From: Candidatus Falkowbacteria bacterium
GTDB taxonomy: Bacteria > Patescibacteriota > Patescibacteriia > UBA11705 > JABHMO01
Length of the DNA: 64,000 nt
Direction of reading: 5' to 3'
Assembly (NCBI GenBank): GCA_016214755.1
Contig: JACRNX010000031.1
Span: 18,020-82,019, forward strand
Under the pieces are notes generated by a model. That model worked only from the letters and a program-made list of their open reading frames with translations. It made no database searches and was not told where the DNA came from. The position numbers were made by a program, and so were the translations under genes. The stretch's first letter is position 1, and every line of letters starts with the position of its first letter. This document shows, in pieces, positions 2,865 through 63,972 of this stretch.

Positions 2865-3851
2865 TCAGGCGTTTTTCAGTTTATGTTTGTATTTTTGGAA
2901 ATATTCAACGGCAAAAGCAGTTAAAAGTCCAAGAATGACGGCTAAACTAAAAGCGGCGATTACATTTCTTCGGCGGTTCGGCGCGATTTTCGCTTTCGGA
3001 GCGATTGGCGCGATTTCTATTTTTGTCTGATTTGTTTCATATTGCTTTTCAAATTCTTTTTGCTGCAACGCTTGATCATTGAGCGAAAGGGCCAGGTTTA
3101 ATTTTGAAATCTCAAATAAAATGCCTTCTTTTTCGGTTTTTAAGGAGGCGACTAGATTAATGTAGCTCTCCACTATTCGGCCCTGCGCTTCTGATTGGGC
3201 GTTGTCTTTTTCTTGAATTTTTGTTTCGTATTTAATAATATCTTTTTCAATTCGTTTTATCACCTCGTTAAGAGCTTTAATGTCAGCTAATGTTTTTTCC
3301 CTGTCTTCCTTTATTAAAATTATTTCGGTTTCAAAAGTTTTTTTGGCGGTGGAAAACAGCTTATCGTGCCGGTCAAAAAGGATTCCGATTATGGCGTTAG
3401 TGTTCTTAACGGCGATTTCCGGCGTCTTGCCTCGGCCTTTTATCATAAGGAAATCCGCGCCTTTGTCTTTTTCAATAGTAAAAAAATTCTTTGCCGTCGA
3501 GTAATCAGATCCTTCCAGCAGTGAGAGCGCCGACGCGATCTGTTTTAAGTATTCATCGCTGTTAAATATTGAAGTAATTTCATTAAAGGTCTCAATAGGT
3601 TTGTTTTTATAGCGTCCAATATAAATTAACGCCCGAGCTTCATAAGTCGAGGGCAGAAGCAGATTAAAAATTATCGCGGCAACCGTGATGATTAGGACGA
3701 TAGAGCCAATAATTATTTTTCTTTTGAGAATTATTTTAATGTAATCCATCAAAATTATGTTATCACTCTCTACCTTTTCTTGATTTTTGATTATTAGCTT
3801 GTCCGCTTCCGGCGACAGCGCTGGTTGATTTGATTCATTTAGGTTTTCCAT
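2865..3851 (-). CDS. polysaccharide co-polymerase / chain-length determinant (Wzz-like)
   Basis: N-terminal TM helix (IIIGSIVLIITVAAIIF), a long coiled-coil-rich soluble region and a C-terminal TM helix (VIAAFSLAVILGLLTAFAV). This is the classic PCP/Wzz topology. It is the last gene of the glycan locus. Confidence 0.55.
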   Translation of the reverse strand: MENLNESNQPALSPEADKLIIKNQEKVESDNIILMDYIKIILKRKIIIGSIVLIITVAAIIFNLLLPSTYEARALIYIGRYKNKPIETFNEITSIFNSDEYLKQIASALSLLEGSDYSTAKNFFTIEKDKGADFLMIKGRGKTPEIAVKNTNAIIGILFDRHDKLFSTAKKTFETEIILIKEDREKTLADIKALNEVIKRIEKDIIKYETKIQEKDNAQSEAQGRIVESYINLVASLKTEKEGILFEISKLNLALSLNDQALQQKEFEKQYETNQTKIEIAPIAPKAKIAPNRRRNVIAAFSLAVILGLLTAFAVEYFQKYKHKLKNA

Positions 3852-3859
3852 AAGCCGTT

Positions 3860-4591
3860 TTAATTAAATAATTTAATTTTATAATAAATAATTCCAATAT
3901 ATTCATGAATGGCAATGGCTGATATTTCAAGATTTTCTGCCGACGGAATTAAATCTAAGACGTTGAATCCGCTTTTTGTTTTATAATCAGAGACCGCGGC
4001 TATTGGTTGAGTATTGAAAGCTCGAAAGGCCATCATCGCTCGGGGCATGTGATAAGCAGAGGTTAACAAAAAAAACGGGTTTTGTCCAATCGCTGGCGCC
4101 AGGTTCCGCGCGCTCTCAAAAGTATTCCTTGATTGTTCGTCCAGTTGAATATACTCAGGTTCTATGCCCACCATTTTAAGCCAGTCGCAGAACTCCGTCA
4201 ATTCATCGTTTTCAGTATCGAACGGGCTTACTCCTGAAATAATGATTTGCACTGTTTGATTGTTTTTTTTATAAAAATTATATAAGCTTAATAATTTTTC
4301 CGCTCGCAATAAATCATTCTCATAGCCGCCGGTCAGAAAGACAATAGTTATTTTATCCTGACTAATATTTTCCTCGCTGATTGGTGGATAATATTTTTCC
4401 AAGGGTGAGATGATGGCCATGGCTATAGGCGTCGTGCTGAACAGATAATATAAAATGGCAACGATTATCAACAAGATTTTTCCTCGCCCGCGCGTTTTTT
4501 CCTTAAAGTTAAGAATTATCGCAATTATCAGGAAAACAAATATAAAAACAATCGGATTCAAAATTTGTTGGATGAGTTTTATGGCCGTCAT
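3860..4591 (-). CDS. DUF218 (YdcF/ElyC/SanA-like) membrane-anchored protein
   Basis: N-terminal TM helices plus the LTSAYHMPRA motif characteristic of DUF218. Confidence 0.55.
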   Translation of the reverse strand: MTAIKLIQQILNPIVFIFVFLIIAIILNFKEKTRGRGKILLIIVAILYYLFSTTPIAMAIISPLEKYYPPISEENISQDKITIVFLTGGYENDLLRAEKLLSLYNFYKKNNQTVQIIISGVSPFDTENDELTEFCDWLKMVGIEPEYIQLDEQSRNTFESARNLAPAIGQNPFFLLTSAYHMPRAMMAFRAFNTQPIAAVSDYKTKSGFNVLDLIPSAENLEISAIAIHEYIGIIYYKIKLFN

Positions 4592-6459
4592 TTTATCATG
4601 CTTAAGTTTGCGTTTGGTATGATTTCCTGAATCAGCTGGATTATCTTATTTTTTTCATTGGCCTCGGCCGCGTTTTTTAATTCGAAAAGTTGTCTCATGA
4701 ACATGTCATCGCCGACTGATTCAAATTTAGAAATGTAAATGCGGTTGTGTTTTGTCGGGCATTCTTCTTTAGTTAAAATTTCTTCAAATAATTTTTCGCC
4801 CGGCCGAATACCGGTAAAAACAATAGGAATGTCAATGTCTGGCTGGTATCCGGCGAGGCGAATCATCTCTTTCGCCAAATCAACAATTTTTATCGGCTCT
4901 CCCATATCCAAAACGAAAATTTCTCCGCCCTCGCCGAGAGCGCTGGCTTGCATTACCAAAAGGCAGGCCTCTTCGGTTACCATGAAGTATCTTTTCATTT
5001 CAGGATGGGTGATTTCAACAGGACCGCCCTTTTTTATTTGATTTTTAAAAATTCCAACGACATTGCCTTGGCTGTCAAGGACATTGCCGAATCGAACGGC
5101 GCAAAATTTCGTTATCCCCTTTTTATCAAGCGAAGTACAAACCATTTCCGCTACTCTTTTACTCGCGCCCATCATTGAAGTCGGATTAATCGCTTTATCG
5201 GTTGATATAAAAACAAATTTTTCCACATTGCTCTTTATCGCCTCCTCGGCCAAAATTAACGTACCAAAAATATTATTCTTTACCGCCTCATCCGGATGAT
5301 CTTCCATCAAGGGAACGTGCTTGTAAGCGGCCGCGTGAAAAACCACCTGCGGTTTATATTGATTTAAAATTGACGCCACTTTATTTCTGTCACCAATATC
5401 GCCGACGATAAATTTTTTATTGATATCCGGATATTGGGTTTTTAGTTCTGTCCAAAGATAAAAGCTTCCGGTTTCGTTATTATCAAGTGAAATTATAAAG
5501 TTTGGTTTAAATTTTAATAATTGCCGATAAAGATGCGAACCAATGGAGCCGGCGCCACCGGTGATAAGGACGTTCTTTCCTTTAATGAAATTATTTATCA
5601 TTTCAGTGTCAATTTCAACTTTGTCGCGGCCTAACAAATCATCAATTTGTATGTCGCGCAAATTGCTAAGCGTGACTTTATCATTCAGCAACTCGTCCGT
5701 GCCGGGAAGGATTTTTATGCTTTTTATTCCCGCTTCGCGCGCGATTTCAACCGCTCGGCAGATAATTTCTTTCGGCGCGGAAGGAGCGGCGATGATAAAT
5801 TCGTTAATGTTATATTTTTGATTGATTTTCGGCACTAAAGATAAATTTCCGATGACTTTTATCCCATGAATCAAAACCCCGCGTTTCATCGGGTTATCGT
5901 CAATTAGCCCGATTAGCTGATGACTGTTATGGCTTAACATGTAGCGAACAAGCTGCTCGCCGGCTTCGCCGGCGCCGAAAATAAGCGCTTTGTTTTTATC
6001 GCCGTTAAGCGGAACATGCTTCAATCCATGAATGTAAATTCTTTTGGCAAAACGCAAGCCACTAAGCATGATCAACGCCAGCAAACCGCTGATAAAAATA
6101 ATTGACCTTGGAAAACCGATGAACGTTTGATAATCTCGCAAAAGAAAAAGCGCGGCGCCAATTATCAGAAATCCAAGTGTTACCGCCCGCAATAAACGCA
6201 ATAATTCCTTCACGCTGACAAACGACCATGATATGTAATACAACCGCTCTCGCCATAGCAGAAAAATTATTATCGGAGCGGATAATAAAATAAAATATCC
6301 AATCATCGGATAATATTTTGGGATTATCTTGCCGTCAAAACGCAAAATAAAACCAAACAAGCAAGAAGCTGATATTATAAAAAAATCAGCTAACAAGAAA
6401 AACGCGGTTCTCTTCGCGGTTGTTCTTTGAAAAAGCCATTTCAGTGCCTTTTTTAACAT
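4588..6459 (-). CDS. membrane-anchored nucleotide-sugar 4,6-dehydratase, CapD/PglF/WbpM family (Polysacc_synt_2)
   Basis: Four N-terminal TM helices, then a Rossmann domain with LITGGAGSIGSHL and a second NAD-binding-like region. 623 aa, typical of the PglF/WbpM/CapD family. Confidence 0.8.
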   Translation of the reverse strand: MLKKALKWLFQRTTAKRTAFFLLADFFIISASCLFGFILRFDGKIIPKYYPMIGYFILLSAPIIIFLLWRERLYYISWSFVSVKELLRLLRAVTLGFLIIGAALFLLRDYQTFIGFPRSIIFISGLLALIMLSGLRFAKRIYIHGLKHVPLNGDKNKALIFGAGEAGEQLVRYMLSHNSHQLIGLIDDNPMKRGVLIHGIKVIGNLSLVPKINQKYNINEFIIAAPSAPKEIICRAVEIAREAGIKSIKILPGTDELLNDKVTLSNLRDIQIDDLLGRDKVEIDTEMINNFIKGKNVLITGGAGSIGSHLYRQLLKFKPNFIISLDNNETGSFYLWTELKTQYPDINKKFIVGDIGDRNKVASILNQYKPQVVFHAAAYKHVPLMEDHPDEAVKNNIFGTLILAEEAIKSNVEKFVFISTDKAINPTSMMGASKRVAEMVCTSLDKKGITKFCAVRFGNVLDSQGNVVGIFKNQIKKGGPVEITHPEMKRYFMVTEEACLLVMQASALGEGGEIFVLDMGEPIKIVDLAKEMIRLAGYQPDIDIPIVFTGIRPGEKLFEEILTKEECPTKHNRIYISKFESVGDDMFMRQLFELKNAAEANEKNKIIQLIQEIIPNANLSMIK

Positions 6460-6480
6460 AATGAAATGAATCTGTATAAA

Positions 6481-6924
6481 TTAATTGCTTTTTATCTTGA
6501 GTTTATAACTAAAAATATTTCCAATTATCGTTAAAATATTGATAATAGCAATGATTATAATTACTCTAGTAGCGCTTAGCTCTATTTTGAGGAAACGAAG
6601 AATAACCAAAGAAAGGACAACAACGCAAATTGACAGAAAAAGGCTAAATATTTGCCGCTCCATCGAATCAAGAGAGGTTATTTTGAAATCAGATTGGCCA
6701 TCACGAGCGAAAGAACGCGTCTCCGGAAAAAACATGAAACTGACGTTCAGTCCTGGAAAATATAAAGTAAAAAAGCCGCCGATGGCAATCGTTAAGGCGA
6801 CGACAAAATCGTACCAAGCCATAAGAAATATGACCATTGTTATGATAGATAATAAAATTATTATTATTTGACTTTGAAATTTATGCCAATCCAATTTTAT
6901 CATAATGATGGCGTGAATTTCCAA
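6481..6924 (-). CDS. small 4-TM membrane protein (possibly GtrA-like)
   Basis: 147 aa with four predicted hydrophobic helices. Overlaps the upstream gene by 25 nt. The GtrA assignment is only from size, topology and context, next to a GT-C-like protein. Confidence 0.3.
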   Translation of the reverse strand: MEIHAIIMIKLDWHKFQSQIIIILLSIITMVIFLMAWYDFVVALTIAIGGFFTLYFPGLNVSFMFFPETRSFARDGQSDFKITSLDSMERQIFSLFLSICVVVLSLVILRFLKIELSATRVIIIIAIINILTIIGNIFSYKLKIKSN

Positions 6925-8549: not shown

Positions 8550-8562
8550 ATAGTAGAATTTT

Positions 8563-9567: not shown

Positions 9568-9580
9568 AATAGCTGATGCT

Positions 9581-13955: not shown

Positions 13956-13956
13956 A

Positions 13957-16895: not shown

Positions 16896-16896
16896 G

Positions 16897-17337: not shown

Positions 17338-17369
17338 AAAAAAGTATTTAATTAAAAATCATTGAAAAA

Positions 17370-21669: not shown

Positions 21670-21685
21670 AATATCTTCCTCGTCA

Positions 21686-24109: not shown

Positions 24110-24160
24110 ATTAATGATTTTAAAATATTTTCCGAAGGATATAGTCCTGCCCAATTGTTT

Positions 24161-54099: not shown

Positions 54100-54109
54100 A
54101 AAATTAATT

Positions 54110-55303: not shown

Positions 55304-55310
55304 ACATGAA

Positions 55311-56309: not shown

Positions 56310-56322
56310 ATTTAATAAATTT

Positions 56323-57075: not shown

Positions 57076-57151
57076 GGGTTAATGTGGAATAATTATTGAC
57101 TTTTCACAATTAGATTGACAAGATTATCTCTTGGCGAGATAATGGAAGCAT

Positions 57152-58206: not shown

Positions 58207-59241
58207 TTGTGAAAAGTCAATAGAGCCGGGCAAATTCTGGTTGACAAGTTCTAATATGCGTTTTTCAATCAGCTCATCAATGGCCTTAACTTCGCCCGGC
58301 CAGCCCTGGCTGTAATCATGAAATATGATCGGCGCGCCATTATTTAAGTGCGGTTGAATATGCTGAAAAATTTCCATGATTTCATCGTAAGTGTGAAATA
58401 AATCAATAAAGGCAAAATCATATATTTCCTTGTTATCCCGCAGAAAATCTTGATATAACATTTTTTGAGGAATTATTACGGCCTTATATTCAGAATTAAA
58501 AGAAATATTCTTAATGAATTCGTCGTAAAAGCTCTCTCCGTATGTTTGCGCAAATTTTTCTTCTATGGCGATGCCTTCCCAACCAAAGGTATCAACTGAA
58601 GTGACTGAACCGCCGTTGTTTTTTAGTACGCCTTTGGCTAAAAAATGTGTGCTTTTGCCACAGGCCGGACCAAGCTCAAGAATTTTTTTGCCTTTTGTCG
58701 CCATAACAGCTTTTTCCAAATATTTTCCCTCTTCTAAAATAAATTGCCCCCGCCGGCTGGAAAAATAATCATACAACGCCAGCTCGCCCAAATCGTTGAC
58801 AGTCGCCATACCGTTTTTGCGGATCGGTTTGAATGCGTTGTAATAATAATTGTCAAAATACCAATCAAATTCAATCGGCGAGTACGACTCGCAATATAAA
58901 CCAATCTCGATAAAATCCTGTGGCTCGCTTAACCCGGAAGCGATCAATGCCTGCGATATTTCTTCCCAATGTCTGGAGGCGATGACAATCAGACATTGAT
59001 TTGACCTGTTGACGCTTTCTTTACGAAATTCTTCAAAGCGAACAATTTTGATTTTGTCAAGATGACAATTTTGGGCATTCTGGTCAATAAATCCTTGAAT
59101 TTGAACATTTAATTCACTTTGCAGAGCTGACTGCAATCGTCCACCCATAAACCCGGCGCCGTAGATCCAAATCGGTCTTTTATTCAAATCAAAAAATGAA
59201 TTTAAAATTTTTAATACACTATCACCGTTTTCGTTTGTCAT
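58198..59241 (-). CDS. SAM-dependent methyltransferase (class I, O-methyltransferase-like C-terminal domain)
   Basis: KKILELGPACGKSTHFLAKG motif I and acidic motif II region (IDLFHTYDEI). The last six codons plus the stop (DFSQLD*) are encoded inside the IS right inverted repeat. Confidence 0.6.
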   Translation of the reverse strand: MTNENGDSVLKILNSFFDLNKRPIWIYGAGFMGGRLQSALQSELNVQIQGFIDQNAQNCHLDKIKIVRFEEFRKESVNRSNQCLIVIASRHWEEISQALIASGLSEPQDFIEIGLYCESYSPIEFDWYFDNYYYNAFKPIRKNGMATVNDLGELALYDYFSSRRGQFILEEGKYLEKAVMATKGKKILELGPACGKSTHFLAKGVLKNNGGSVTSVDTFGWEGIAIEEKFAQTYGESFYDEFIKNISFNSEYKAVIIPQKMLYQDFLRDNKEIYDFAFIDLFHTYDEIMEIFQHIQPHLNNGAPIIFHDYSQGWPGEVKAIDELIEKRILELVNQNLPGSIDFSQLD

Positions 59242-59249
59242 AATTTACT

Positions 59250-61016
59250 TTATGTTATGGCTGAAATAATTCTCTCGGCTACTCTGGTCGCGCCGTTCGC
59301 ATCTATGGCGCCAACTAAACCTTTTTCAATTTGAGACATTTTTGCAAACGCGTTAAAGGTTTTGTGAAATTGTTCTTGGTCAATCTCGCCAATCAGGCCA
59401 AAATATTTAAAATTTTTTGTCTTCAAAAAATTTTTATTTAGTTTTTCTTCGTGTTGCGCTATCGCCAAAACCGGAACCTGCAAATAAAACGCTTCGTAGA
59501 TTGATTGGCCGAATCCCAATATCACGAAATGACAGCCAGCCAGCGCTTCGGCGAACGATTTGTTGTCGCCGAGAACAAAGGTATTCAGATTTAATTTATT
59601 GATTTGCCTTTTCACCTGCGATCTTTTTTTATTAAACGGGCCCAGATATACGCCGAATGGCTGTTTGAATCCCCCGTTATCCAAAAACTTTAGAATTTTC
59701 CAAGTTATGTTTTTAGGGTCAGCGCCGCCACCGCAAATTAAAACATATTTCCCCTTTTTTCTTTTTTGCCTTTTAATCTCGTTTCGGATGATCGCGTATT
59801 GCGCGCCGAAAATTATATTTTTCCATTTAAATGGAATCACGCTGTGGCCATTGGGAATAATGTACAAATCCGCGCCATTTACTTTTTTGTCTAGCCGATC
59901 AATGACAATAACCTTTCTCGCGCCACGCCTGATTTGTTTAATGCTGACATCAAACAGCGTATCAATTATTACTCCAGTAGCGTTGTTTGACTTCAAAAAA
60001 TTATAAAAATCATTTTCTGAATCTATGACAAAATAATTAAAATTATTTTCAGACAATGTCTTTTCCGTCTGTTTGTTTCGTCGGGCGACAAAAGTTATTC
60101 CGCAAAAATATTTGTCTTGCAATTCCTTGGCCAGCGCCATCATTCTTTGCAAATGGCCCAGCCCGATTTTTTCAGAAGCGTCAGTTCTGATTATAAATTT
60201 ATGACTAACGTCTATTTTTGATTTTTGCTTTACTTCCGCGTTGATCAACCACAATTTTTTGTCCTTTTTATAAAGCGCGATTACTTTATTCAGATTAATA
60301 AGCTCTTTTCGATTTTTCCATAAACGATTGTAAATTTCCCTCATAAATCGCAAGTCGGAAATTGTATCAACCGAGAGTCGGAGCATATGTTTATTAAAAG
60401 GAGCGCGCAAATTCACTTCAAACCATTTGAATTTCTCAGAATTTTCTTTTAAATAAATATTCAAATGTTCTTTATGATAGGGCTGACTCGCATTCTGATA
60501 CTGGACTTCAAGCGCGGACATCTTGCAGACATCAAGCCCTTCGTGCTGGCATTGCTGGCCACTTTTTAATTTGGCTGAATCAGCTTTTGTCTTTATCATT
60601 CCCGTGACTACATCGTCAACAAATTTTGGGTCAATCAGCGGACAATCGCCGCAAATGCCGGCAATGATGTCCGCCTTTACCCATTTCGCCGCGGCCAGAA
60701 CGCGACCGACGACATCGTTGATATCGCCGTGATAACGAAAAACTCTGTAACCTATATTTTTGACATATTTTGCCAGCGGATTATCGGTTTTATCGCTCGA
60801 AGTAGCTAAAATTATTTCATCAATCGTTTTAGTTCTTTTTAAACGATCAAAAATATGCCAAATCATCGGTCGGCCGTTGATATCAATTAATGCTTTGCCC
60901 GGCAAGCGCGAGGATGACATTCTCGCCCTGACGATAGCTACAACCCGTGTTCTTTTTTCCATATGTCTCTTGTTTTTAACAATGGCCGCAATCCATCGCT
61001 CGGGTCTGCCCGCCAT
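59250..61016 (-). CDS. fusion: SpsF/PseF-like cytidylyltransferase + PseG-like UDP-sugar hydrolase (UDP-2,4-diacetamido-2,4,6-trideoxy-L-altropyranose hydrolase family)
   Basis: N-terminal VVAIVRARMSSSRLPGKALIDINGRPMIWH (CTP_transf_3 family). Central-to-C-terminal IIRTDASEKIGLGHLQRMMALAKEL resembles the PseG signature (IRADAS..G.GH..RC..LA). Overlaps the upstream NeuB-like gene by 79 nt; the alternative internal Met at 60962 reduces this to 25 nt. Confidence 0.65.
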   Translation of the reverse strand: MAGRPERWIAAIVKNKRHMEKRTRVVAIVRARMSSSRLPGKALIDINGRPMIWHIFDRLKRTKTIDEIILATSSDKTDNPLAKYVKNIGYRVFRYHGDINDVVGRVLAAAKWVKADIIAGICGDCPLIDPKFVDDVVTGMIKTKADSAKLKSGQQCQHEGLDVCKMSALEVQYQNASQPYHKEHLNIYLKENSEKFKWFEVNLRAPFNKHMLRLSVDTISDLRFMREIYNRLWKNRKELINLNKVIALYKKDKKLWLINAEVKQKSKIDVSHKFIIRTDASEKIGLGHLQRMMALAKELQDKYFCGITFVARRNKQTEKTLSENNFNYFVIDSENDFYNFLKSNNATGVIIDTLFDVSIKQIRRGARKVIVIDRLDKKVNGADLYIIPNGHSVIPFKWKNIIFGAQYAIIRNEIKRQKRKKGKYVLICGGGADPKNITWKILKFLDNGGFKQPFGVYLGPFNKKRSQVKRQINKLNLNTFVLGDNKSFAEALAGCHFVILGFGQSIYEAFYLQVPVLAIAQHEEKLNKNFLKTKNFKYFGLIGEIDQEQFHKTFNAFAKMSQIEKGLVGAIDANGATRVAERIISAIT

Positions 61017-61828
61017 TCACGGTCAATTGATTCGCTTTCCTTGCAACGTTTCACTCCGTCGCCGTCGCTAAGGGTGTAATCAGCTGTCAAATTAACATCT
61101 GCCTTGATGTCTCGGATAACTTTTTCAATTTGTTCCGGAAGCCAATTATATCCGCGCGCGAATTCTTCCCCTTTTCCGTCCAAATCCAAATGGAATTCTA
61201 TGCTTGAGGCCTGCCATCTAAACGCGGCGCGCGACAAAACTTTTTCATCAACGCTGTGATCTGACCAGCCGGCCAAACAGTTAAACATTTTTCTGTATGT
61301 TTCCAAGACCGACAAATTGCATTCAGCCGCCGGCGCGGGATAACTGGACACGCAATGGTACAAGGTGATTTCTTTGGCGTCGGATTTTTTTAAAATATTA
61401 ACTGCCTTAGCCACTTCTTCAGTATTGGCCATTCCTGTCGCGAGTTTAATCGGTTTTCCTGTCCACGCGCATTTTTTCAACAATCCCTCCCAAAGAATTT
61501 CGTATGACGCGATTTTAAAATAATCAACATAAGGCGCGAGAATATCCACTGCTTTCTGATAAAACGGCGTGCAGGCGAATTTCAATCCCAACCCGTGGCA
61601 TTCATCAGCCAATTTTGGAATAAATTCAACGGGCAATTCCCATTTTTTCCGGCTGCGATGCTCCTCGCTTGTGGCCAATATCTCGGACGCGAAAAGTTCG
61701 TCAATTTTAAATAATTGGAATTTAACGCCGTCGCAGCCGATTTTTTTCGCGATTTGGATAAATTCCAGACAGCGGCCGAGATTCTGGCTGTGATTGCTTG
61801 AAACTTCGGCGATGAATTCAACATTCAT
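60938..61828 (-). CDS. NeuB-family nonulosonic acid synthase (pseudaminic acid synthase PseI-like), lacking an obvious C-terminal SAF domain
   Basis: IAEVSSNHSQNLGRCLEFIQIAKKIGCDGVKFQ matches the NeuB/PseI/SpsE N-terminal TIM-barrel signature (AE.S.NH.G....A..MI..A...GADAVKFQ). Confidence 0.7.
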   Translation of the reverse strand: MNVEFIAEVSSNHSQNLGRCLEFIQIAKKIGCDGVKFQLFKIDELFASEILATSEEHRSRKKWELPVEFIPKLADECHGLGLKFACTPFYQKAVDILAPYVDYFKIASYEILWEGLLKKCAWTGKPIKLATGMANTEEVAKAVNILKKSDAKEITLYHCVSSYPAPAAECNLSVLETYRKMFNCLAGWSDHSVDEKVLSRAAFRWQASSIEFHLDLDGKGEEFARGYNWLPEQIEKVIRDIKADVNLTADYTLSDGDGVKRCKESESIDREWRADPSDGLRPLLKTRDIWKKEHGL

Positions 61829-61832
61829 AAAA

Positions 61833-63002
61833 TTAACAAAACTTTTTTATTATTGATTTCACATTCTCAATCAAATAACCTTGCTCATCGTCAGTCAATG
61901 AATAATAAATCGGCAAGCTAACGCATTCAGAATAATATCGGTCGGCGTTAATATATTTTTCAGCGTCATAACCTAATTTTTGGTAATACGAATTGCGATT
62001 GATCGGACGATAATGAATTTGCACTTTTATATTTTTCTCATGCAATTCGTCAAAAATTTGGCGGCGCTTGCTGATTAAATAATCATCGGCCAAACGCAAT
62101 ATATAAAGATGCCAAGCCGGATTGTATTTGCCTAAATCATAAAACGGCAATTTTATTCTAGGCTGTAATTCTGCAAAGGCCTCATTATATCGTTCGGCTA
62201 TCATCCGCCGTCTATTTAAAAACAATCCGACTTTTTTTAATTGGGAAATGCCCAGCGCGCACTGAAAATCAGTTAACCGATAATTGAATCCCAATTCGCG
62301 CATATCATAGCACCAAGCGCCTTCAGCCGCTGTCTCCTCATCTTTATAAATACCGTGACTGCGCAGCGCGCATAATTTTTCATATAATTTTTCACCATTG
62401 GTTGTAATCATTCCACCCTCACCGGTTGTCATGAGTTTCACCGGATGAAAACTAAACACCGCCATGTCTGAATGTTCGCAACTGCCGACTTTATGCCATT
62501 TCCCGTCCGCGAAATAATCCGCGCCCAGCGCGTGGCAAGCGTCTTCAATCACGATTAATTTATTCTTTTGGGCGGTTTCATAAATGCTGGGCAAATCAGC
62601 GGGCAATCCAGCAAAATGGACAGGAATAACCGCTTTGGTTTTTTCAGTGATTTTGTTTTGAATCTGCTTCGGGTCAATATTTATATTATTATAATCAATA
62701 TCAGCGAATATCGGCTTAGCGCCGACGTATAAAAGGCAATTCGCGGTCGCGACAAAACTGATCGGCGTGGTAATCGCTTCGTCGCCATACTCGAAACCAG
62801 CGGCTAACGCGGCGAGATGGAGCGCCGCCGTGCCCGATGAGACCGCAATCGCGAATTTTACGCCGCAATATTCAGCGAACGCGTTTTCAAATTCTTTAAC
62901 CCTTGGCCCTTGGGTCAGCCAATCTGAACGGATAACTTCAATCGCGAAATTAACATCCGAATTATCAATAAATTGTTTGCCGTACGGTATTATTTTGTCC
63001 AT
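61833..63002 (-). CDS. pseC: UDP-4-amino-4,6-dideoxy-N-acetyl-beta-L-altrosamine transaminase (PseC-type DegT aminotransferase)
   Basis: IPYGKQFIDNSDVNFAIEVIRSDWLTQGPRVKEFE near the N-terminus is the PseC-type signature. Fold-type I aminotransferase, 389 aa. Overlaps pseB by 38 nt. Confidence 0.8.
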   Translation of the reverse strand: MDKIIPYGKQFIDNSDVNFAIEVIRSDWLTQGPRVKEFENAFAEYCGVKFAIAVSSGTAALHLAALAAGFEYGDEAITTPISFVATANCLLYVGAKPIFADIDYNNINIDPKQIQNKITEKTKAVIPVHFAGLPADLPSIYETAQKNKLIVIEDACHALGADYFADGKWHKVGSCEHSDMAVFSFHPVKLMTTGEGGMITTNGEKLYEKLCALRSHGIYKDEETAAEGAWCYDMRELGFNYRLTDFQCALGISQLKKVGLFLNRRRMIAERYNEAFAELQPRIKLPFYDLGKYNPAWHLYILRLADDYLISKRRQIFDELHEKNIKVQIHYRPINRNSYYQKLGYDAEKYINADRYYSECVSLPIYYSLTDDEQGYLIENVKSIIKKFC

Positions 63003-63972
63003 TTTCGTATTTGTAAATAATATGCCTCAATTCTTCATCAGAAAGCCAGCGATCGTTATTGTTGCTGTGATATCCCTCAAAATCTTCGGGCAAAGATTTT
63101 TCATCATTGGCAACCGGACCGAAATGAGCCGCCAACGGCCTCATAACGAACCGATCTGCTTTTTCAAACGTGTATCTCGCGTCATCCGCGGTCACAAGCG
63201 TCTCGTGCAATTTCTCGCCCGGTCTTATGCCCGTGATTTTAATTTCCGAATTAGGCGCGATCGCTTTGGCGAGATCAACGACGCGCATGCTCGACAATTT
63301 AGGCACGAAAACCTCTCCTCCGCTCATCATGCCCAAACAATTAATCACAAATTCAACTCCTTGCTCCAATTGTATCCAAAATCGCGTCATTCTAACGTCA
63401 GTCACGGGAATGGGCAATCCTTGCATTTTACATTCGTGAAAAAATGGAATCACGCTGCCGCGCGAACCGAACACATTGCCATAGCGTACGACGCTGAACA
63501 TCGTTCTGTTTGGACAAAATTTATTGGCCGCGATGAATATCTTTTCAGCGCACAATTTCGTCGCGCCATACAAATTCACCGGACTCGCCGCTTTGTCAGT
63601 GCTGATGGCGATAACCTTTTCAACATTTTTATCAATGGCGGCGTTAATTACATTTTGCGTGCCGATTATATTTGTCCTAACCGCTTCAAACGGATTATAT
63701 TCCGCGGTTGGAACTATTTTAAAAGCCGCCGCGTGAATCACAATGTCAACATCATCAAAGGCGCGATGCAATCTTTCCGGATCGCGGATGTCGCCGATGA
63801 AAAATCTCACGTCAGCGTGTTTGAATTTTTCCGCCATTTCATACTGTTTCATTTCGTCGCGGCTGAAGATAATGAGTTTCTTCGGGCGATACTTGGACAG
63901 GACAATTTCCGTGAATTTTTGTCCGAACGAACCGGTCCCGCCGGTTATTAGTACGACCTTATGGTCAAGCAT
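62965..63972 (-). CDS. pseB: UDP-N-acetylglucosamine 4,6-dehydratase (inverting), PseB/FlaA1
   Basis: VLITGGTGSFGQKF, RFFIGDIRD, HAAAFKIVPTAEYNPFEAVRTNIIGTQNVI and ISTDKAASPVNLYGATKLCAEK are near-canonical PseB/FlaA1 motifs. Confidence 0.9.
   Translation of the reverse strand: MLDHKVVLITGGTGSFGQKFTEIVLSKYRPKKLIIFSRDEMKQYEMAEKFKHADVRFFIGDIRDPERLHRAFDDVDIVIHAAAFKIVPTAEYNPFEAVRTNIIGTQNVINAAIDKNVEKVIAISTDKAASPVNLYGATKLCAEKIFIAANKFCPNRTMFSVVRYGNVFGSRGSVIPFFHECKMQGLPIPVTDVRMTRFWIQLEQGVEFVINCLGMMSGGEVFVPKLSSMRVVDLAKAIAPNSEIKITGIRPGEKLHETLVTADDARYTFEKADRFVMRPLAAHFGPVANDEKSLPEDFEGYHSNNNDRWLSDEELRHIIYKYENGQNNTVRQTIY

What the first reader, a model, noticed from the sequence alone, without database searches (positions are those of the whole stretch)
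2865..63972. 61-kb single-strand glycan super-locus combining three nucleotide-sugar pathways with radical SAM and thiamine chemistry
About 50 consecutive minus-strand genes with 0-20 nt gaps or small overlaps, which indicates translational coupling. They encode three nucleotide-sugar activation routes (pseudaminic acid, GDP-heptose, CDP-6-deoxyhexose). The assembly set (WecA, Wzx, Wzy/ligase-like, Wzz) fits a Wzy-dependent polymer, possibly also used for protein glycosylation. Tailoring enzymes include at least six SAM methyltransferases, GT2/GT4/GT9-like/GT-B/GT-C-like transferases and a GtrB-like Und-P-sugar synthase. Five radical SAM enzymes, a DXS-like ThDP enzyme and three ATP-grasp ligases are interleaved. 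That is an atypical enzymatic inventory for an O-antigen, capsule or glycosylation island and points to a heavily C-modified, methylated and amidated glycan whose structure is probably undescribed. The locus runs off the right edge of the window.
Basis: partly seen in the sequence, partly recalled or inferred. Interest (0 to 1): 0.75.

Follow-up and report, generated by a model that had tools for sequence, protein, structure and literature searches.

The report
Mosaic surface-glycan island of a CPR bacterium
This is a real, roughly 65-kb block of about 53 same-strand genes in an uncultured Candidatus Falkowbacteria bacterium; it joins several separately conserved sugar-building cassettes, two of them chemically uncharacterised, and probably makes an elaborately decorated cell-surface glycan.

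Summary
There are 50 consecutive minus-strand ORFs (2865-63972), and 45 of 49 junctions overlap or are 21 nt or less. All five radical SAM enzymes keep CxxxCxxC. The locus also has three ATP-grasp ligases, a DXS-like ThDP enzyme, six SAM methyltransferases, and PseB/PseC, RfbF/RfbG and a heptose-type four-enzyme set.

Corrections:
- An intact IS630 element on the opposite strand (57097-58221) splits the run.
- Co-directionality continues through unrelated flanking genes.
- The locus extends about 3.6 kb past the window edge.

The host is a Candidatus Falkowbacteria (CPR) MAG.

The "odd" inventory resolves into conserved modules.
- The DXS-like, SDR, ATP-grasp and short-NeuB genes are orthologues of a cassette in Shewanella and Aliarcobacter flagellin-glycosylation islands. 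That cassette matches the sfmABCDE gene set, which makes a still-unsolved pseudaminic-acid derivative.
- The DXS-like clade keeps its ThDP residues but has Y392Q and R478Y in 121/121 members, so it is probably not a DXP synthase.
- The CDP-hexose, cytidylyltransferase, aminotransferase, SDR, B12-rSAM and SPASM-rSAM genes form a second cassette found in 79 MAG/SAG loci of bacteria and archaea. Its function is unknown.

Only one rSAM (TokK/CysS-like) specifically supports C-methylation.

Verdict: a new variant of a known kind, of moderate interest.

The parts
62965..63972 (-). g52 PseB, UDP-GlcNAc 4,6-dehydratase (inverting)
   Evidence: TIGR03589 473.5 bits, cut-off 407.75. 55-56% identical to the first gene of the Shewanella and Aliarcobacter cassettes.
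61833..63002 (-). g51 PseC aminotransferase
   Evidence: TIGR03588 472.1 bits, cut-off 423.5. 39-45% identical to the cassette orthologues.
60938..61828 (-). g50 short NeuB/PseI-like synthase (SfmA type, 296 aa, no C-terminal SAF part)
   Evidence: PF03102 2.9e-54. PseI model 156 bits, cut-off 340, matching only model positions 4-253 of 327. 54-55% identical to the 285-286 aa orthologues.
59250..61016 (-). g49 cytidylyltransferase (CTP_transf_3) fused to a PseG-like hydrolase
   Evidence: PF02348 1.1e-27 at residues 26-228. PseG TIGR03590 107.5 bits, cut-off 153.55, at residues 273-520.
58198..59241 (-). g48 Methyltransf_24 protein; its last codons run into the IS
   Evidence: PF13578 1.1e-15. 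347 aa here but 351 aa in the IS-free Logan contig.
57097..58221 (+). IS630-family insertion sequence. It interrupts the locus and is not part of the pathway.
   Evidence: HTH_33/HTH_23 ORF plus DDE_3 ORF. 26-bp inverted repeats, TA flanks and an A8 slippery run (inverted-repeat comparison). GC 0.50 against 0.40 for the window. Absent from the Logan contig L002 of the same run.
56323..57075 (-). g47 SAM methyltransferase
   Evidence: PF08241 1.8e-14.
55311..56309 (-). g46 GHMP kinase, HddA-like heptose-7-phosphate kinase
   Evidence: GHMP_kinases_N and _C domains. NF049969 153.9 bits, cut-off 600; best hit only.
54110..55363 (-). g45 fusion of a sugar-1-P nucleotidyltransferase (HddC-like) with a GmhB-like HAD phosphatase
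   Evidence: PF00483 plus HAD domains. GmhB NF006506 171.9 bits, cut-off 178; HddC 102.9, cut-off 300.
53059..54099 (-). g44 NAD-dependent epimerase/dehydratase
   Evidence: PF01370 2.2e-40.
51021..53087 (-). g43 cobalamin-type radical SAM, TokK/CysS/KedN5 family (putative iterative C-methyltransferase)
   Evidence: KedN5 subfamily 175.7 bits. PDB TokK 1e-35 and CysS 7.5e-34. CxxxCxxC at C220. The nearest cluster representative is only 57% identical.
48382..51024 (-). g42 fusion of a DegT aminotransferase with a B12-domain radical SAM
   Evidence: PF01041 7.8e-112, PF02310 and PF04055. The only full-length match among 5.8 billion proteins is itself. The radical SAM part is nearest to AprD4 and OxsB.
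47768..48367 (-). g41 SIS isomerase, GmhA-like
   Evidence: SIS_2 4e-14. gmhA 93.4 bits, cut-off 209.
46834..47787 (-). g40 GT2 glycosyltransferase
   Evidence: PF00535 5.9e-25.
46282..46833 (-). g39 orphan protein (183 aa)
   Evidence: No Pfam hit at E<=1 and no PDB hit.
45047..46285 (-). g38 SAM methyltransferase (412 aa)
   Evidence: PF13489 3.4e-17.
43933..45066 (-). g37 ATP-grasp ligase
   Evidence: PF02655 9e-07. Paralogue of g33.
42776..43957 (-). g36 ATP-grasp ligase
   Evidence: PF13535 1.5e-10. Paralogue of g33.
42031..42801 (-). g35 short-chain dehydrogenase (SfmC type)
   Evidence: adh_short_C2 4e-63. 36-40% identical to the cassette SDR.
40236..42059 (-). g34 DXS-like ThDP enzyme (SfmB type)
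   Evidence: dxs TIGR00204 528 bits, cut-off 466. 51-53% identical to the cassette enzymes. Y392Q and R478Y in 121/121 clade members, with the ThDP and catalytic residues kept.
38968..40254 (-). g33 ATP-grasp L-amino-acid-ligase-like enzyme (SfmE type)
   Evidence: LAL_C2 1.1e-15 and ATP-grasp_3. 32-44% identical to the cassette ligase.
37067..38971 (-). g32 GH57-like protein conserved in the cassette
   Evidence: PF03065 1.6e-07. 35-36% identical over about 630 aa to the Shewanella and Aliarcobacter genes.
35988..37070 (-). g31 orphan protein (360 aa)
   Evidence: No Pfam hit, no NCBIfam hit, no PDB hit.
35210..36049 (-). g30 orphan protein (279 aa)
   Evidence: No Pfam hit and no NCBIfam hit.
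33616..35238 (-). g29 Wzx-like flippase
   Evidence: PF01943 24.6 bits, cut-off 28.2. 13 predicted TM segments. 36.5% identical to the flippase next to the module C genes in L006.
32638..33606 (-). g28 radical SAM with a SPASM/twitch end (module C)
   Evidence: PF04055 plus PF13186. C-terminal part similar to BtrN, 1.3e-8. 39-60% identical in related loci.
31963..32634 (-). g27 SAM methyltransferase
   Evidence: PF08241 3.2e-11.
30915..31943 (-). g26 radical SAM/SPASM protein
   Evidence: PF04055 plus PF13186. PDB SkfB 7e-13 and BlsE 2e-5.
29998..30903 (-). g25 SAM methyltransferase
   Evidence: PF13489 2.8e-23.
28845..29996 (-). g24 GT2 polyprenyl-phosphate sugar synthase-like protein
   Evidence: PF00535. 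AglJ 146.5 bits; also Dol-P-hexose transferase and ArnC hits. 5 C-terminal TM segments.
28037..28765 (-). g23 SAM methyltransferase
   Evidence: PF13489 2.5e-16.
26149..28044 (-). g22 polytopic membrane protein (631 aa, 11 TM segments), candidate GT-C or polymerase
   Evidence: No Pfam hit. TM prediction.
24161..26086 (-). g21 fusion of a CTP_transf_3 cytidylyltransferase with a HisC-like aminotransferase (module C)
   Evidence: PF02348 plus PF00155. hisC 251.9 bits, cut-off 276.55. The two halves are separate adjacent genes elsewhere, 56-68% and 35-57% identical.
21686..24154 (-). g20 fusion of an SDR epimerase/dehydratase with a B12-domain radical SAM (module C)
   Evidence: PF01370, PF02310 and PF04055. 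The radical SAM half is 60-67% identical to about 497-aa stand-alone proteins. Nearest PDB hit is AprD4, 2e-15.
20362..21753 (-). g19 DegT-family PLP enzyme (463 aa)
   Evidence: PF01041 3.9e-67. RfbH model 104.9 bits, cut-off 423.
19239..20378 (-). g18 DegT sugar aminotransferase
   Evidence: PF01041 6.1e-97.
18473..19237 (-). g17 glucose-1-phosphate cytidylyltransferase (RfbF)
   Evidence: TIGR02623 315.1 bits, cut-off 300.25.
17370..18488 (-). g16 CDP-glucose 4,6-dehydratase (RfbG)
   Evidence: TIGR02622 470.2 bits, cut-off 278.45.
16897..17337 (-). g15 small cupin, RmlC/ketoisomerase-like
   Evidence: PF00908 20.5 bits, below cut-off. Co-occurs with g16, g17 and g14 in related loci.
15930..16895 (-). 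g14 GT2 glycosyltransferase
   Evidence: PF00535 2e-32. TuaG-like.
13957..15933 (-). g13 large conserved protein of module C (658 aa); candidate transferase
   Evidence: No Pfam hit. 23-29% identical homologues in 17 of the 79 related loci. The family profile hits only the KpsC beta-Kdo transferase, weakly (E 0.045). The AF2 model was unusable.
12672..13955 (-). g12 Wzy_C-domain membrane protein (polymerase, ligase or O-oligosaccharyltransferase type)
   Evidence: PF04932 27.4 bits, cut-off 31.7. 8 TM segments.
11679..12671 (-). g11 NAD-dependent epimerase/reductase
   Evidence: PF01370 1.6e-30.
10537..11682 (-). g10 GT4 glycosyltransferase
   Evidence: PF00534 3.7e-36.
9581..10540 (-). g9 NDP-sugar dehydratase/epimerase (LegB/UXS-like)
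   Evidence: PF16363 4e-55. LegB 188 bits, cut-off 475.
8563..9567 (-). g8 WecA/MraY-family polyprenyl-phosphate HexNAc-1-P transferase
   Evidence: PF00953 1.1e-33. wecA 92.9 bits, cut-off 326. 10 TM segments.
6900..8549 (-). g7 polytopic membrane protein (549 aa, 13 TM segments)
   Evidence: No Pfam hit. TM prediction.
6481..6924 (-). g6 DUF1616 membrane protein
   Evidence: PF07760 34.5 bits.
4588..6459 (-). g5 membrane-anchored PglF/WbpM-like UDP-HexNAc 4,6-dehydratase
   Evidence: PF02719 1.7e-107. 4 N-terminal TM segments.
3860..4591 (-). g4 DUF218/ElyC-like protein
   Evidence: PF02698 4.7e-22. ElyC 85 bits, cut-off 205.
2865..3851 (-). g3 Wzz-type chain-length determinant
   Evidence: PF02706 29.7 bits, cut-off 25.5. 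TM segments at both ends.
1438..2580 (-). g2 secreted Ser/Thr-rich protein; possible glycoprotein substrate (tentative member)
   Evidence: N-terminal hydrophobic segment, a 15-Thr run, and 47% Ser+Thr in residues 100-200. A terminator-like hairpin follows it on the minus strand at 1425-1396, and none was found between g3 and g2.

Best explanation
The region is a cell-surface glycan biosynthesis and assembly island of about 65 kb and about 53 genes. It spans window 2865 to roughly 3.6 kb beyond the right edge and belongs to a Candidatus Falkowbacteria (CPR) bacterium. It was built by juxtaposing separately conserved modules.

Module A (g52-g48 plus g38-g32) is an sfm-type pathway.
- PseB and PseC make UDP-4-amino-4,6-dideoxy-AltNAc.
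- No PseH acetyltransferase is present, so the new amine is probably acylated by ATP-grasp ligases (g33, plus paralogues g36 and g37).
- The acyl group is an acid built by the DXS-like ThDP enzyme g34 (an acyloin-type C-C bond to a non-phosphorylated acceptor), the SDR g35, and methyltransferases.
- The PseG-like hydrolase, the short NeuB-like synthase and the cytidylyltransferase then yield a CMP-activated, N-acylated pseudaminic-acid derivative.

Module B (g47-g40) makes a nucleotide-activated heptose. It is then oxidised or aminated (g44, and the N-terminal half of g42) and radical-modified (g43, TokK/CysS-like, probably C-methylation; and the C-terminal half of g42).

Module C comprises the three genes beyond the edge, g28 and g21-g13. 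It combines CDP-glucose 4,6-dehydratase chemistry with a widely conserved set of unknown product: cytidylyltransferase, HisC-like aminotransferase, SDR, B12-domain rSAM, twitch-rSAM, 2-hydroxyacid dehydrogenase and HAD. Its predicted output is a second CMP/CDP-activated, aminated, radical-modified unit.

Module D (g29, g24, g22, g12-g3) assembles the glycan. It uses a PglF-like dehydratase, a WecA-family initiating transferase, GT2 and GT4 transferases, a Wzx-like flippase, a Wzy_C protein, Wzz, and a polyprenyl-P-sugar synthase with polytopic partners. The polymer is built on a polyprenyl carrier and then delivered to the wall or to a protein.

Shown here: domain identities, orthology and synteny, the active-site substitutions, and assembly integrity. 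Inferred: every substrate, the order of steps, and that all modules feed one glycan.
For: Domain calls.

Host: the 100%-identical database proteins are named Candidatus Falkowbacteria and lie on an 87-kb contig.

Module A:
- The closest homologues of g34 (49-66% identity, about 590 aa) lie in Shewanella halifaxensis and Aliarcobacter cryaerophilus loci beside Maf and flagellin genes. Those loci carry PseB, PseC, CTP_transf_3, short NeuB, methyltransferases, SDR, ATP-grasp and GH57-like genes.
- Reciprocal blastp gives 32-56% identity for eight proteins.
- The S. oneidensis set sfmABCDE has the same composition. It is required for a flagellin O-glycan of 274 Da (mono-N-acetyl Pse) plus 236 Da (plus 1-2 methyls), which was still undefined in 2023.
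- In 121/121 SfmB-like sequences, H49, H80, D152, N181, H299, E370, R398, R420, D427 and H431 (E. coli numbering) are kept, but Y392 is Q and R478 is Y.
- No acetyltransferase domain was found in any window protein.

Module C:
- The radical SAM half of g20 is 60-67% identical to stand-alone proteins.
- Its neighbours in L006-L009 are the same families as g21, g28, g13, g29 and the off-window genes.
- In the 27 loci with at least 55% identity, the counts are: CTP_transf_3 19, SDR 20, g28-type 17, 2-Hacid_dh 17, HAD 15, HisC-type 14, g13-type 10, and RfbF, RfbG and cupin 5-6 each.
- In Omnitrophota the gene order matches the order of the fused halves in the window.

Radical SAM affinities: TokK/CysS for g43, AprD4/OxsB for g20 and g42, BtrN for g28.

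Assembly topology.

Assembly integrity.
Against: - No product has been observed, and the host is uncultured.
- The heptose enzymes, Wzx, Wzy_C, WecA, PseG and PseI all score below their curated cut-offs.
- No recognisable pseudaminic-acid transferase (Maf or other) was found. Five proteins (g7, g22, g30, g31, g39) have no family assignment.
- The modules occur separately in other genomes, so they may serve two or more glycans rather than one.
- The IS630 element, on the opposite strand, separates the first five genes from the rest and could be polar.
- g34 formally passes the NCBIfam dxs equivalog cut-off.
- The clear orthologue of the cassette's 403-aa methyltransferase was not identified in the window: its best hit is g47 at 28% identity over a partial stretch.
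- The roles of Y392 and R478 in glyceraldehyde-3-phosphate binding come from my recollection of the DXS literature. They were not tested here, and the E. coli sequence used for numbering was recalled from memory (checked only by length and residue positions).
Confidence: 0.7

Rival explanations
1. The region holds several adjacent but functionally independent glycan loci rather than one super-locus. One example would be a protein O-glycosylation system using the Pse derivative, next to a separate wall polysaccharide using heptose and CDP-hexose units. On this reading, tight spacing and a common strand reflect CPR genome compaction and strand bias.
For: - Each module is found on its own elsewhere.
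- Unrelated flanking genes share the same strand, and GC skew is uniformly negative.
- There are two polytopic candidates (g7, g22) besides Wzy_C, and both a WecA-type transferase and a polyprenyl-P-sugar synthase.
- The IS splits the run.
Against: - Module genes are interleaved rather than blocked. Module A is split by module B, and module C genes lie at both ends and in the middle.
- Only one Wzx-like, one Wzz and one initiating transferase were found.
- 45 of 49 junctions are 21 nt or less.
Confidence: 0.3
2. g34 is the organism's ordinary DXP synthase (for isoprenoid, thiamine or PLP precursor supply) and merely sits inside the locus, perhaps to supply the polyprenyl carrier.
For: It passes the NCBIfam dxs equivalog cut-offs (528 against 466; 506 against 395). 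Its solved relatives are all DXS. It is named DXS in NCBI.
Against: - Its 120 closest homologues form an approximately 590-aa clade with invariant Y392Q and R478Y.
- The three members whose context was inspected (loci L003, L004, L005) lie between an SDR, an ATP-grasp ligase and Pse genes in flagellin-glycosylation islands. Their hosts, Shewanella and Aliarcobacter, presumably have a separate dxs; this is general knowledge and was not checked here.
- The corresponding S. oneidensis gene is required for flagellin modification.
Confidence: 0.05
3. The SPASM radical SAM enzymes and the interleaved methyltransferases (g23-g28) mature a ribosomal peptide or a cofactor and are unrelated to the glycan.
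For: The best family hits of g26 and g28 are peptide and cofactor maturases such as SkfB, AhbD, PqqE and the tungsten-cofactor maturase.
Against: - All of those hits are far below their cut-offs.
- The junctions in g28-g25 are 3-19 nt, leaving no room for a precursor gene.
- g28 orthologues (39-60% identity) are fixed members of the sugar-gene cassette in 31 of the 79 related loci.
- The C-terminal part of g28 resembles BtrN, and both proteins hit the sugar-nucleoside enzyme BlsE.
Confidence: 0.06
4. The 61-kb run is a chimeric misassembly of several loci from different organisms.
For: It comes from a metagenome-assembled contig. A repeat (the IS630 element) lies inside it, and an independent assembly breaks at that point.
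Against: - Independent Logan contigs from the same run match with 0 mismatches in 5778 bases and 2 in 7671. The IS-free contig itself bridges the g48-g47 junction.
- The 880-aa g42 is also recorded from Logan.
- Tetranucleotide correlation is 0.96-0.99 for every 8-kb block.
Confidence: 0.03

Closest known systems
Shewanella oneidensis sfmABCDE / pseBC flagellin-modification locus, and its counterparts in S. halifaxensis and Aliarcobacter cryaerophilus
   Same: The gene set is the same: PseB, PseC, a short PseI-like synthase, a cytidylyltransferase, a DXS-like ThDP enzyme, an SDR, an ATP-grasp ligase, methyltransferases and a GH57-like protein. Identity is 32-56%. The expected product class is a mono-N-acetyl pseudaminic acid carrying a large methylated acyl-type substituent.
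   Different: - No Maf transferase or flagellin gene is nearby. The cassette sits inside a Wzx/Wzy_C/Wzz-type assembly locus of a CPR bacterium.
- It is split into two blocks by the heptose module.
- It has three ATP-grasp ligases instead of one.
- No clear orthologue of the 403-aa methyltransferase was found.
- I did not align S. oneidensis sequences themselves.
1-deoxy-D-xylulose-5-phosphate synthase (DXS)
   Same: Same three-domain architecture, ThDP motif and catalytic histidines. It passes the NCBIfam dxs cut-offs, and all PDB relatives are DXS.
   Different: Y392Q and R478Y are invariant in the clade. The protein is about 30 residues shorter than E. coli DXS. The genomic context is Pse modification rather than isoprenoid genes.
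Campylobacter jejuni capsule and flagellin glycan loci (GDP-heptose tailoring; ATP-grasp amidoligase Cj1438 with the HisC-like Cj1437 and a HAD phosphatase). This comparison rests on my own knowledge.
   Same: Both combine a GDP-heptose route, nonulosonic acids, methyltransferases, an ATP-grasp amide ligase, a HisC-like aminotransferase, a HAD phosphatase and a UDP-sugar dehydrogenase.
   Different: To my knowledge, Campylobacter has no B12-domain radical SAM enzymes on these routes and no DXS-like enzyme. Assembly there is ABC-transporter or Maf dependent. No sequence comparison was run here.
Aminoglycoside radical SAM sugar tailoring: AprD4/AprD3 deoxygenation and the BtrN dehydrogenase. Also the TokK/CysS/KedN5 iterative cobalamin methyltransferases.
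   Same: These are the nearest solved or curated relatives of g20 and g42 (AprD4), g28 (BtrN) and g43 (TokK, CysS, KedN5). The fusion of an SDR to the radical SAM in g20 parallels the AprD4 + AprD3 pairing.
   Different: Similarity is remote (E 1e-8 to 1e-35, all far below the family cut-offs). The substrates here would be nucleotide sugars for a glycan, not antibiotic intermediates. No activity is known.
CDP-3,6-dideoxyhexose (rfb) pathway of Salmonella and Yersinia
   Same: RfbF and RfbG equivalogs are present above their cut-offs.
   Different: There is no RfbH/E1 dehydrase: the best score is 131 bits against a cut-off of 423. No E3 was found. Two DegT aminotransferases and a small cupin are present instead, so an amino-6-deoxyhexose is more likely than a dideoxyhexose.
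Large single-strand glycan loci such as the Leptospira rfb locus and S-layer glycan (slg) clusters of Gram-positive bacilli. This comparison rests on my own knowledge.
   Same: Tens of co-directional genes that mix several nucleotide-sugar routes, nonulosonic-acid genes, and Wzx/Wzy or ABC export.
   Different: The host is a CPR bacterium. This locus has five radical SAM enzymes and the sfm-type cassette. No comparison was run here.

Membership tests
Pseudaminic acid pathway (PseB, C, H, G, I, F) | PseB, an inverting UDP-GlcNAc 4,6-dehydratase | tested here: met
   g52 scores 473.5 bits on TIGR03589, cut-off 407.75.
Pseudaminic acid pathway (PseB, C, H, G, I, F) | PseC aminotransferase | tested here: met
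   g51 scores 472.1 bits on TIGR03588, cut-off 423.5.
Pseudaminic acid pathway (PseB, C, H, G, I, F) | PseH N-acetyltransferase | tested here: not met
   No GNAT or hexapeptide acetyltransferase domain was found in any window protein, even at relaxed E-values for the orphans.
Pseudaminic acid pathway (PseB, C, H, G, I, F) | PseG hydrolase, PseI synthase and PseF cytidylyltransferase at equivalog level | tested here: inconclusive
   PseG: 107.5 bits, cut-off 153.55. PseI: 156.1 bits, cut-off 340.25, and the C-terminal part is missing. g49 has a CTP_transf_3 domain, but no PseF model appears among its hits.
sfm-type modified-Pse cassette (Shewanella flagellin modification) | Co-located short PseI-like, TPP/DXS-like, SDR, SAM-methyltransferase and ATP-grasp genes | tested here: met
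   g50, g34, g35 and g33 are 32-55% identical to the S. halifaxensis and Aliarcobacter set. The composition matches the published sfmA-E description. Methyltransferases are present, but the orthologue of the 403-aa one is unclear.
sfm-type modified-Pse cassette (Shewanella flagellin modification) | Association with a Maf transferase and a flagellin target | tested here: not met
   No MptE-like/Maf or flagellin domain was found in the window or in the 10 kb upstream.
DXP synthase (EC 2.2.1.7) | Sequence score above the curated family cut-off, with ThDP-binding and catalytic residues present | tested here: met
   528 bits against a cut-off of 466. H49, H80, D152, N181, E370, R398, R420, D427 and H431 are conserved.
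DXP synthase (EC 2.2.1.7) | The glyceraldehyde-3-phosphate-binding residues Y392 and R478 | tested here: not met
   These positions are Q and Y in g34 and in all 120 closest homologues. Both are kept in E. coli DXS (recalled sequence) and in the P. aeruginosa-type PDB chain; the second PDB chain keeps Y392 and has K in place of R478. Their role in binding is from my memory of the literature.
Wzx/Wzy-dependent glycan assembly | An initiating polyprenyl-phosphate sugar-1-P transferase | tested here: met
   g8 matches PF00953 at 1.1e-33 and has 10 TM segments. It is below the wecA-specific cut-off.
Wzx/Wzy-dependent glycan assembly | A Wzx flippase and a Wzy polymerase | tested here: inconclusive
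   g29 scores 24.6 bits on PF01943, cut-off 28.2, with 13 TM segments. g12 scores 27.4 bits on PF04932, cut-off 31.7, with 8 TM segments. Wzy_C also covers ligases and O-oligosaccharyltransferases.
Wzx/Wzy-dependent glycan assembly | A Wzz chain-length regulator | tested here: met
   g3 scores 29.7 bits on PF02706, cut-off 25.5, with TM segments at both ends.
GDP-D-glycero-alpha-D-manno-heptose route (GmhA, HddA, GmhB, HddC) | All four activities encoded together | tested here: inconclusive
   All four are best hits, but each is below its cut-off: 93 against 209; 154 against 600; 172 against 178; 103 against 300. The nucleotide used is not determinable.
CDP-6-deoxyhexose route | RfbF cytidylyltransferase and RfbG 4,6-dehydratase | tested here: met
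   315.1 bits against a cut-off of 300.25, and 470.2 against 278.45.
CDP-3,6-dideoxyhexose route | RfbH/E1 3-dehydrase | tested here: not met
   The best RfbH-model scores are 104.9 bits (g19) and 131.4 bits (g18), against a cut-off of 423.
Cobalamin-dependent (class B) radical SAM methyltransferases | An N-terminal B12-binding domain plus a CxxxCxxC radical SAM core | tested here: met
   g20, g42 and g43 have PF02310 and PF04055, with the motif at C553, C577 and C220.
Cobalamin-dependent (class B) radical SAM methyltransferases | Methyl-transfer activity and cobalamin use | not testable with these tools
   Only g43 groups with proven methyltransferases (TokK, CysS). The nearest solved relative of g20 and g42 is AprD4, which is not a methyltransferase.

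The most novel reading that the evidence does not exclude
Module C is an undescribed pathway shared by many uncultured bacteria (CPR, Omnitrophota, Nitrospirota, Dehalococcoidales, Planctomycetes) and archaea (Methanoregula, Methanomassiliicoccus, DPANN). It comprises a CTP_transf_3 cytidylyltransferase, a HisC-like aminotransferase, an SDR, a B12-domain rSAM, a twitch-rSAM, a 2-hydroxyacid dehydrogenase, a HAD phosphatase and a g13-type putative transferase, and it is often accompanied by RfbF, RfbG and a cupin. On this reading it makes a new CMP/CDP-activated, radical-tailored sugar or sugar acid for surface glycans. In parallel, the SfmB-type DXS-like clade would be a new ThDP enzyme class that forges a C-C bond in the unsolved 236-Da substituent of pseudaminic acid.
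Probability: 0.35. Interest if true: 0.75.

Novelty: new variant of a known kind. Interest (0 to 1): 0.55.

Why it matters
CPR bacteria have very small genomes (on general knowledge about 1 Mb) and live attached to hosts. Spending about 65 kb on one surface-glycan island suggests the glycan is central to their lifestyle.

The analysis ties the locus's strangest genes to two recurring, biochemically unsolved cassettes:
- the sfm-type pseudaminic-acid modification set, whose 236-Da product has been undefined since 2013;
- a radical-SAM/cytidylyltransferase cassette spread across bacteria and archaea.

Both cassettes are defined here by gene content. The DXS-like enzyme also gets a concrete active-site signature (Y392Q, R478Y). 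That gives enzymologists specific targets. It also flags a probable systematic mis-annotation of these proteins as DXP synthase, which would distort isoprenoid-pathway calls in genomes and MAGs.

Tried and rejected
- A genome-contig scan with g43 alone found no relative.
- A single-sequence AlphaFold2 model of g13 was unusable (mean pLDDT 34.5), so no fold search was run.
- Relaxed Pfam scans (E<=1) of g2, g7, g13, g22, g30, g31 and g39 found nothing. PDB sequence searches of g39 and g31 also found nothing.
- The Rfam gathering scan and the tRNA scan of the window found nothing, so there is no riboswitch or tRNA landmark.
- Literature searches turned up nothing further on the sfm genes beyond the 2013 paper and a 2023 preprint. 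No paper in the library pairs 'nonulosonic acid' with 'radical SAM' or 'Candidate Phyla Radiation' with 'pseudaminic acid'. Broader searches on cobalamin rSAM in polysaccharide loci were unproductive. One hit shows only that an uncharacterised radical SAM gene exists in a C. jejuni HS:19 capsule cluster.
- Housekeeping DXS: considered and rejected on clade context and residue changes.
- RiPP maturation by g26 and g28: rejected because there is no room for a precursor gene and the neighbours are conserved sugar genes.
- Misassembly: rejected on the independent contigs and uniform composition.
- 'GT9-like' could not be substantiated.
- A specific product for module C (serinol or amino-acid phosphate, a new ulosonic acid, or an AprD4-like deoxygenation) was considered, but none could be supported. 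The KpsC hit of the g13 family (E 0.045) is only a lead.

Full report
**1. Observation**

ORF listing shows 50 consecutive minus-strand ORFs of at least 146 aa between 2865 and 63972. I numbered them g52 (right end) to g3 (left end).

Of the 49 junctions, 25 overlap and 20 are 0-21 nt. Three are 32-79 nt and one is 1122 nt.

The large gap is not empty. It holds two overlapping plus-strand ORFs, with HTH and DDE_3 transposase domains. They are bounded by 26-bp inverted repeats and TA dinucleotides, and an A8 run lies between the ORFs. This is an intact IS630-family element at 57097-58221.

- five radical SAM proteins, all with CxxxCxxC;
- three ATP-grasp ligases;
- a DXS-like enzyme;
- six SAM methyltransferases;
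- PseB and PseC, and RfbF and RfbG, above curated cut-offs;
- a heptose-type set of isomerase, kinase, phosphatase and nucleotidyltransferase, as best hits below cut-offs;
- a WecA-family transferase, Wzz, and Wzx-like and Wzy_C-like membrane proteins;
- GT2 and GT4 transferases, and an AglJ/ArnC-like polyprenyl-phosphate sugar synthase.

A GT9 domain was not found. 'GT-C-like' rests only on the topology of g7 and g22.

**2. Origin and integrity**

Identical database proteins are named Candidatus Falkowbacteria bacterium, and the contig is 87 kb. The host is therefore a member of the Candidate Phyla Radiation.

Two contigs from an independent assembly of run SRR12113407 match the window, with 2 mismatches in 7671 bases and 0 in 5778. 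Tetranucleotide profiles are uniform, with r of 0.96-0.99. I therefore reject misassembly.

One of those contigs lacks the IS. In its place are 34 nt of different sequence, and g48 is 351 aa rather than 347 aa. The population therefore holds both IS-free and IS-bearing alleles.

The same contig shows what lies beyond the window edge. Three more same-strand genes follow: a HAD hydrolase, a PF04199 cyclase, and a 777-aa fusion of a 2-hydroxyacid dehydrogenase with a UDP-sugar dehydrogenase. An HTH_17 gene and unrelated small genes come next, and two GT4 genes lie about 5 kb further on.

All of these are on the same strand, as are QueA and AhpC at the left end. GC skew is negative throughout. Common orientation is therefore a property of this genome region, not proof of one operon.

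**3. The ThDP / ATP-grasp block is a known, conserved cassette**

g34 passes the NCBIfam dxs equivalog cut-off. Its 120 closest relatives, however, are about 590-aa proteins at 49-66% identity. They come from Shewanella, Aliarcobacter, Sulfurimonas, Omnitrophota and many metagenomes.

In S. halifaxensis and A. cryaerophilus these genes lie in flagellin-glycosylation islands, next to Maf and flagellin genes. The islands carry PseB, PseC, a cytidylyltransferase, a short (285 aa) NeuB-like synthase, methyltransferases, an SDR, an ATP-grasp ligase and a GH57-like protein.

Blastp against the window gives these identities:

| Protein | Window gene | Identity |
|---|---|---|
| PseB | g52 | 55-56% |
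| PseC | g51 | 39-45% |
| short NeuB-like synthase | g50 | 54-55% |
| DXS-like enzyme | g34 | 51-53% |
| SDR | g35 | 36-40% |
| ATP-grasp ligase | g33 | 32-44% |
| GH57-like protein | g32 | 35-36% |

This composition matches S. oneidensis sfmABCDE: a PseI-like protein, a TPP enzyme, a 3-oxoacyl-ACP-reductase-like SDR, a SAM methyltransferase and an ATP-grasp protein. That operon is required for a flagellin O-glycan made of a 274-Da nonulosonic acid plus a 236-Da moiety carrying up to two methyl groups (PMC3765264). A 2023 preprint still describes the large Pse derivative as undefined.

The window's module A is g52-g48 plus g38-g32. It is thus an sfm-type pathway, here with three ATP-grasp paralogues and no Maf or flagellin.

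**4. Is g34 a DXP synthase?**

I aligned g34 and its 120 homologues with E. coli DXS. I recalled the E. coli sequence from memory. I checked it by its length of 620 and by H49, E370, Y392, R398, R420, D427, H431 and R478 all falling on the right residues.

The ThDP-binding and catalytic residues are invariant. Y392 is Q and R478 is Y in all 121 sequences. One of the two PDB DXS chains shown keeps both Y and R; the other keeps Y and has K in place of R.

As I recall the DXS literature, Y392, R420 and R478 bind glyceraldehyde-3-phosphate. Losing two of the three, together with the conserved Pse context, argues that this clade uses another acceptor. The 'DXS' label is then an over-annotation.

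The likely chemistry is inferred, not shown:
- a hydroxyethyl-ThDP carbanion adds to a non-phosphorylated carbonyl;
- the SDR reduces the product;
- methyltransferases methylate it;
- an ATP-grasp ligase forms an amide bond to the free amine left because no PseH acetyltransferase is encoded (none was found).

**5. The radical SAM genes also belong to recurring cassettes**

The radical SAM half of g20 is 60-67% identical to stand-alone proteins of about 497 aa in many anaerobic lineages. In a Smithellaceae-type metagenome locus and a Nealsonbacteria MAG, its neighbours are the families of g21 (both halves), the SDR half of g20, g28, g29, g13 and the off-window dehydrogenase and HAD genes.

A profile scan of species-representative genomes returned 79 loci, all from MAGs or SAGs. 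They include:
- bacteria: Omnitrophota, several CPR groups, Nitrospirota (including Ca. Magnetominusculus), Dehalococcoidales, Planctomycetes, Pelagibacteraceae and Thiomargarita;
- archaea: Methanoregula, Methanomassiliicoccus and DPANN lineages.

In the 27 loci whose radical SAM is at least 55% identical, neighbour counts are:

| Neighbour | Loci (of 27) |
|---|---|
| SDR | 20 |
| CTP_transf_3 cytidylyltransferase | 19 |
| g28-type rSAM | 17 |
| 2-hydroxyacid dehydrogenase | 17 |
| HAD | 15 |
| HisC-type aminotransferase | 14 |
| g13-type protein | 10 |
| GT2 (g14-type) | 9 |
| cyclase | 7 |
| RfbF, RfbG, cupin | 5-6 each |

In Omnitrophota the order is g28, g21N, g21C, g20N, g20C, g13. The window's g21 and g20 are therefore fusions of neighbouring genes.

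This defines module C: the three genes beyond the edge, g28 and g21-g13. Its product is unknown.

The nearest solved relatives are AprD4 and OxsB for g20 and g42. For g28 they are BtrN and the sugar-nucleoside decarboxylase BlsE. For g26 they are SkfB and BlsE. A profile of the g13 family hits only the CMP-Kdo-dependent transferase KpsC, and weakly (E 0.045). This is a lead that the cassette's cytidylyltransferase feeds a CMP-sugar-acid transferase. A single-sequence structure model of g13 failed.

**6. The heptose block**

g43 is the one radical SAM with a specific methyltransferase affinity: the KedN5 subfamily, TokK at 1e-35 and CysS at 7.5e-34. Its clade is small. The nearest cluster representative is 57% identical and the next are 33-44%.

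In 80 metagenome loci, g43-type genes neighbour NeuB-like synthases (17 loci), DegT (13) and PseB (7) far more often than heptose genes (2-5). The heptose context may therefore be special to this genome, or g43 may act on the nonulosonic acid.

The g42 fusion of DegT with a B12-domain radical SAM has no full-length match other than itself among 5.8 billion proteins. A 33%-identical stand-alone relative of its radical SAM half also sits in a polysaccharide locus, next to an SDR.

**7. Assembly**

The assembly genes are:
- g5, a membrane-anchored PglF/WbpM-like dehydratase;
- g9 and g11, SDRs;
- g8, the WecA-family initiating transferase;
- g10, g14, g40 and g24, glycosyltransferases;
- g29, with 13 TM segments;
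- g12, Wzy_C-like with 8 TM segments;
- g3, Wzz;
- g7 and g22, polytopic proteins with no family hit.

Together these fit assembly on a polyprenyl carrier followed by polymerisation or transfer.

CPR bacteria are thought to lack LPS (general knowledge). The acceptor is therefore more likely the cell wall or a protein.

The gene just downstream, g2, encodes a secreted protein with a 15-residue Thr run and 47% Ser/Thr over 100 residues. The only strong terminator-like hairpin on this strand follows g2 rather than g3. g2 is a tentative candidate glycoprotein.

**8. Verdict**

The locus is real and rich. Its unusual content breaks down into conserved modules. One has been genetically known since 2013 and the others are recurrent but uncharacterised.

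It is a new variant of a known kind of system, a surface-glycan island, in an unusual host. The most valuable leads are the SfmB-type ThDP clade signature and the pan-domain module C.

No paper in the searchable library links radical SAM enzymes with nonulosonic acids, or CPR bacteria with pseudaminic acid.

Noticed in passing
window 57097-58221 (+); Logan contig L002, last ~90 bases: There is an intact IS630-family element with 26-bp inverted repeats, TA flanks, an A8 frameshift site and GC 0.50. It sits between g48 and g47 on the opposite strand. An independent contig from the same sequencing run lacks it and carries 34 nt of different sequence instead. Both alleles therefore exist, and the C-terminus of g48 differs between them (347 aa against 351 aa).
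   Followed up: partly
window 1438-2580 (-), terminator-like hairpin 1396-1425: This gene encodes a secreted protein with GYGYGY repeats, a run of 15 threonines and 47% Ser/Thr in residues 100-200. It has no Pfam family. It lies directly downstream of Wzz and is followed by the only strong terminator-like hairpin. It may be the glycosylated substrate.
   Followed up: partly
g34 (window 40236-42059) and proteins P0121-P0240: All 121 members of this approximately 590-aa DXS-like clade have Q at E. coli position 392 and Y at position 478, while keeping the ThDP and catalytic residues. Many are named '1-deoxy-D-xylulose-5-phosphate synthase' by their sources, and g34 passes the NCBIfam equivalog cut-off. 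This points to systematic mis-annotation.
   Followed up: yes
loci L012-L090: The g20-type B12-domain radical SAM and its cassette occur in both bacteria and archaea (Methanoregula, Methanomicrobiales, Methanomassiliicoccus, Woesearchaeota, Nanoarchaeota). All 79 hits are from uncultured-organism records (MAGs, SAGs and other environmental isolates).
   Followed up: partly
loci L091-L170: TokK/CysS-like radical SAM genes related to g43 lie next to NeuB-like nonulosonic-acid synthases in 17 of 80 metagenome loci (many from marine samples, by the contig names that say so). They rarely lie next to heptose genes.
   Followed up: partly
window g20, g21, g42, g45, g49; L002 6351-8684: Six gene fusions occur in one locus: SDR+rSAM, cytidylyltransferase+aminotransferase, DegT+rSAM, nucleotidyltransferase+HAD, PseF-like+PseG-like, and 2-Hacid_dh+UDP-sugar dehydrogenase. 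At least two of them join genes that are separate neighbours in other phyla. The DegT+rSAM fusion has no other full-length match in the 5.8-billion-protein collection.
   Followed up: partly
L002 6115-6357 (about window coordinate 67.6-67.9 kb, off window): A small HTH_17 (excisionase/MerR-like) gene overlaps the start of the first gene of the locus. A 52%-identical copy sits at the edge of the related locus L016. It may be a regulator or a mobility remnant.
   Followed up: no
whole window and L002: At least 80 kb of genes are all on one strand, and GC skew is uniformly negative (cumulative -1.83 over 64 kb). This suggests a strong replication-strand bias in this genome.
   Followed up: no
window 13957-15933 (g13) and alignment A3: The g13-type protein family (about 650 aa, no Pfam domain) has invariant WW, K, G, R, S, P, S and E positions. 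It has only a marginal profile match to the KpsC beta-Kdo transferase. It is an uncharacterised family, conserved beside the cytidylyltransferase.
   Followed up: partly
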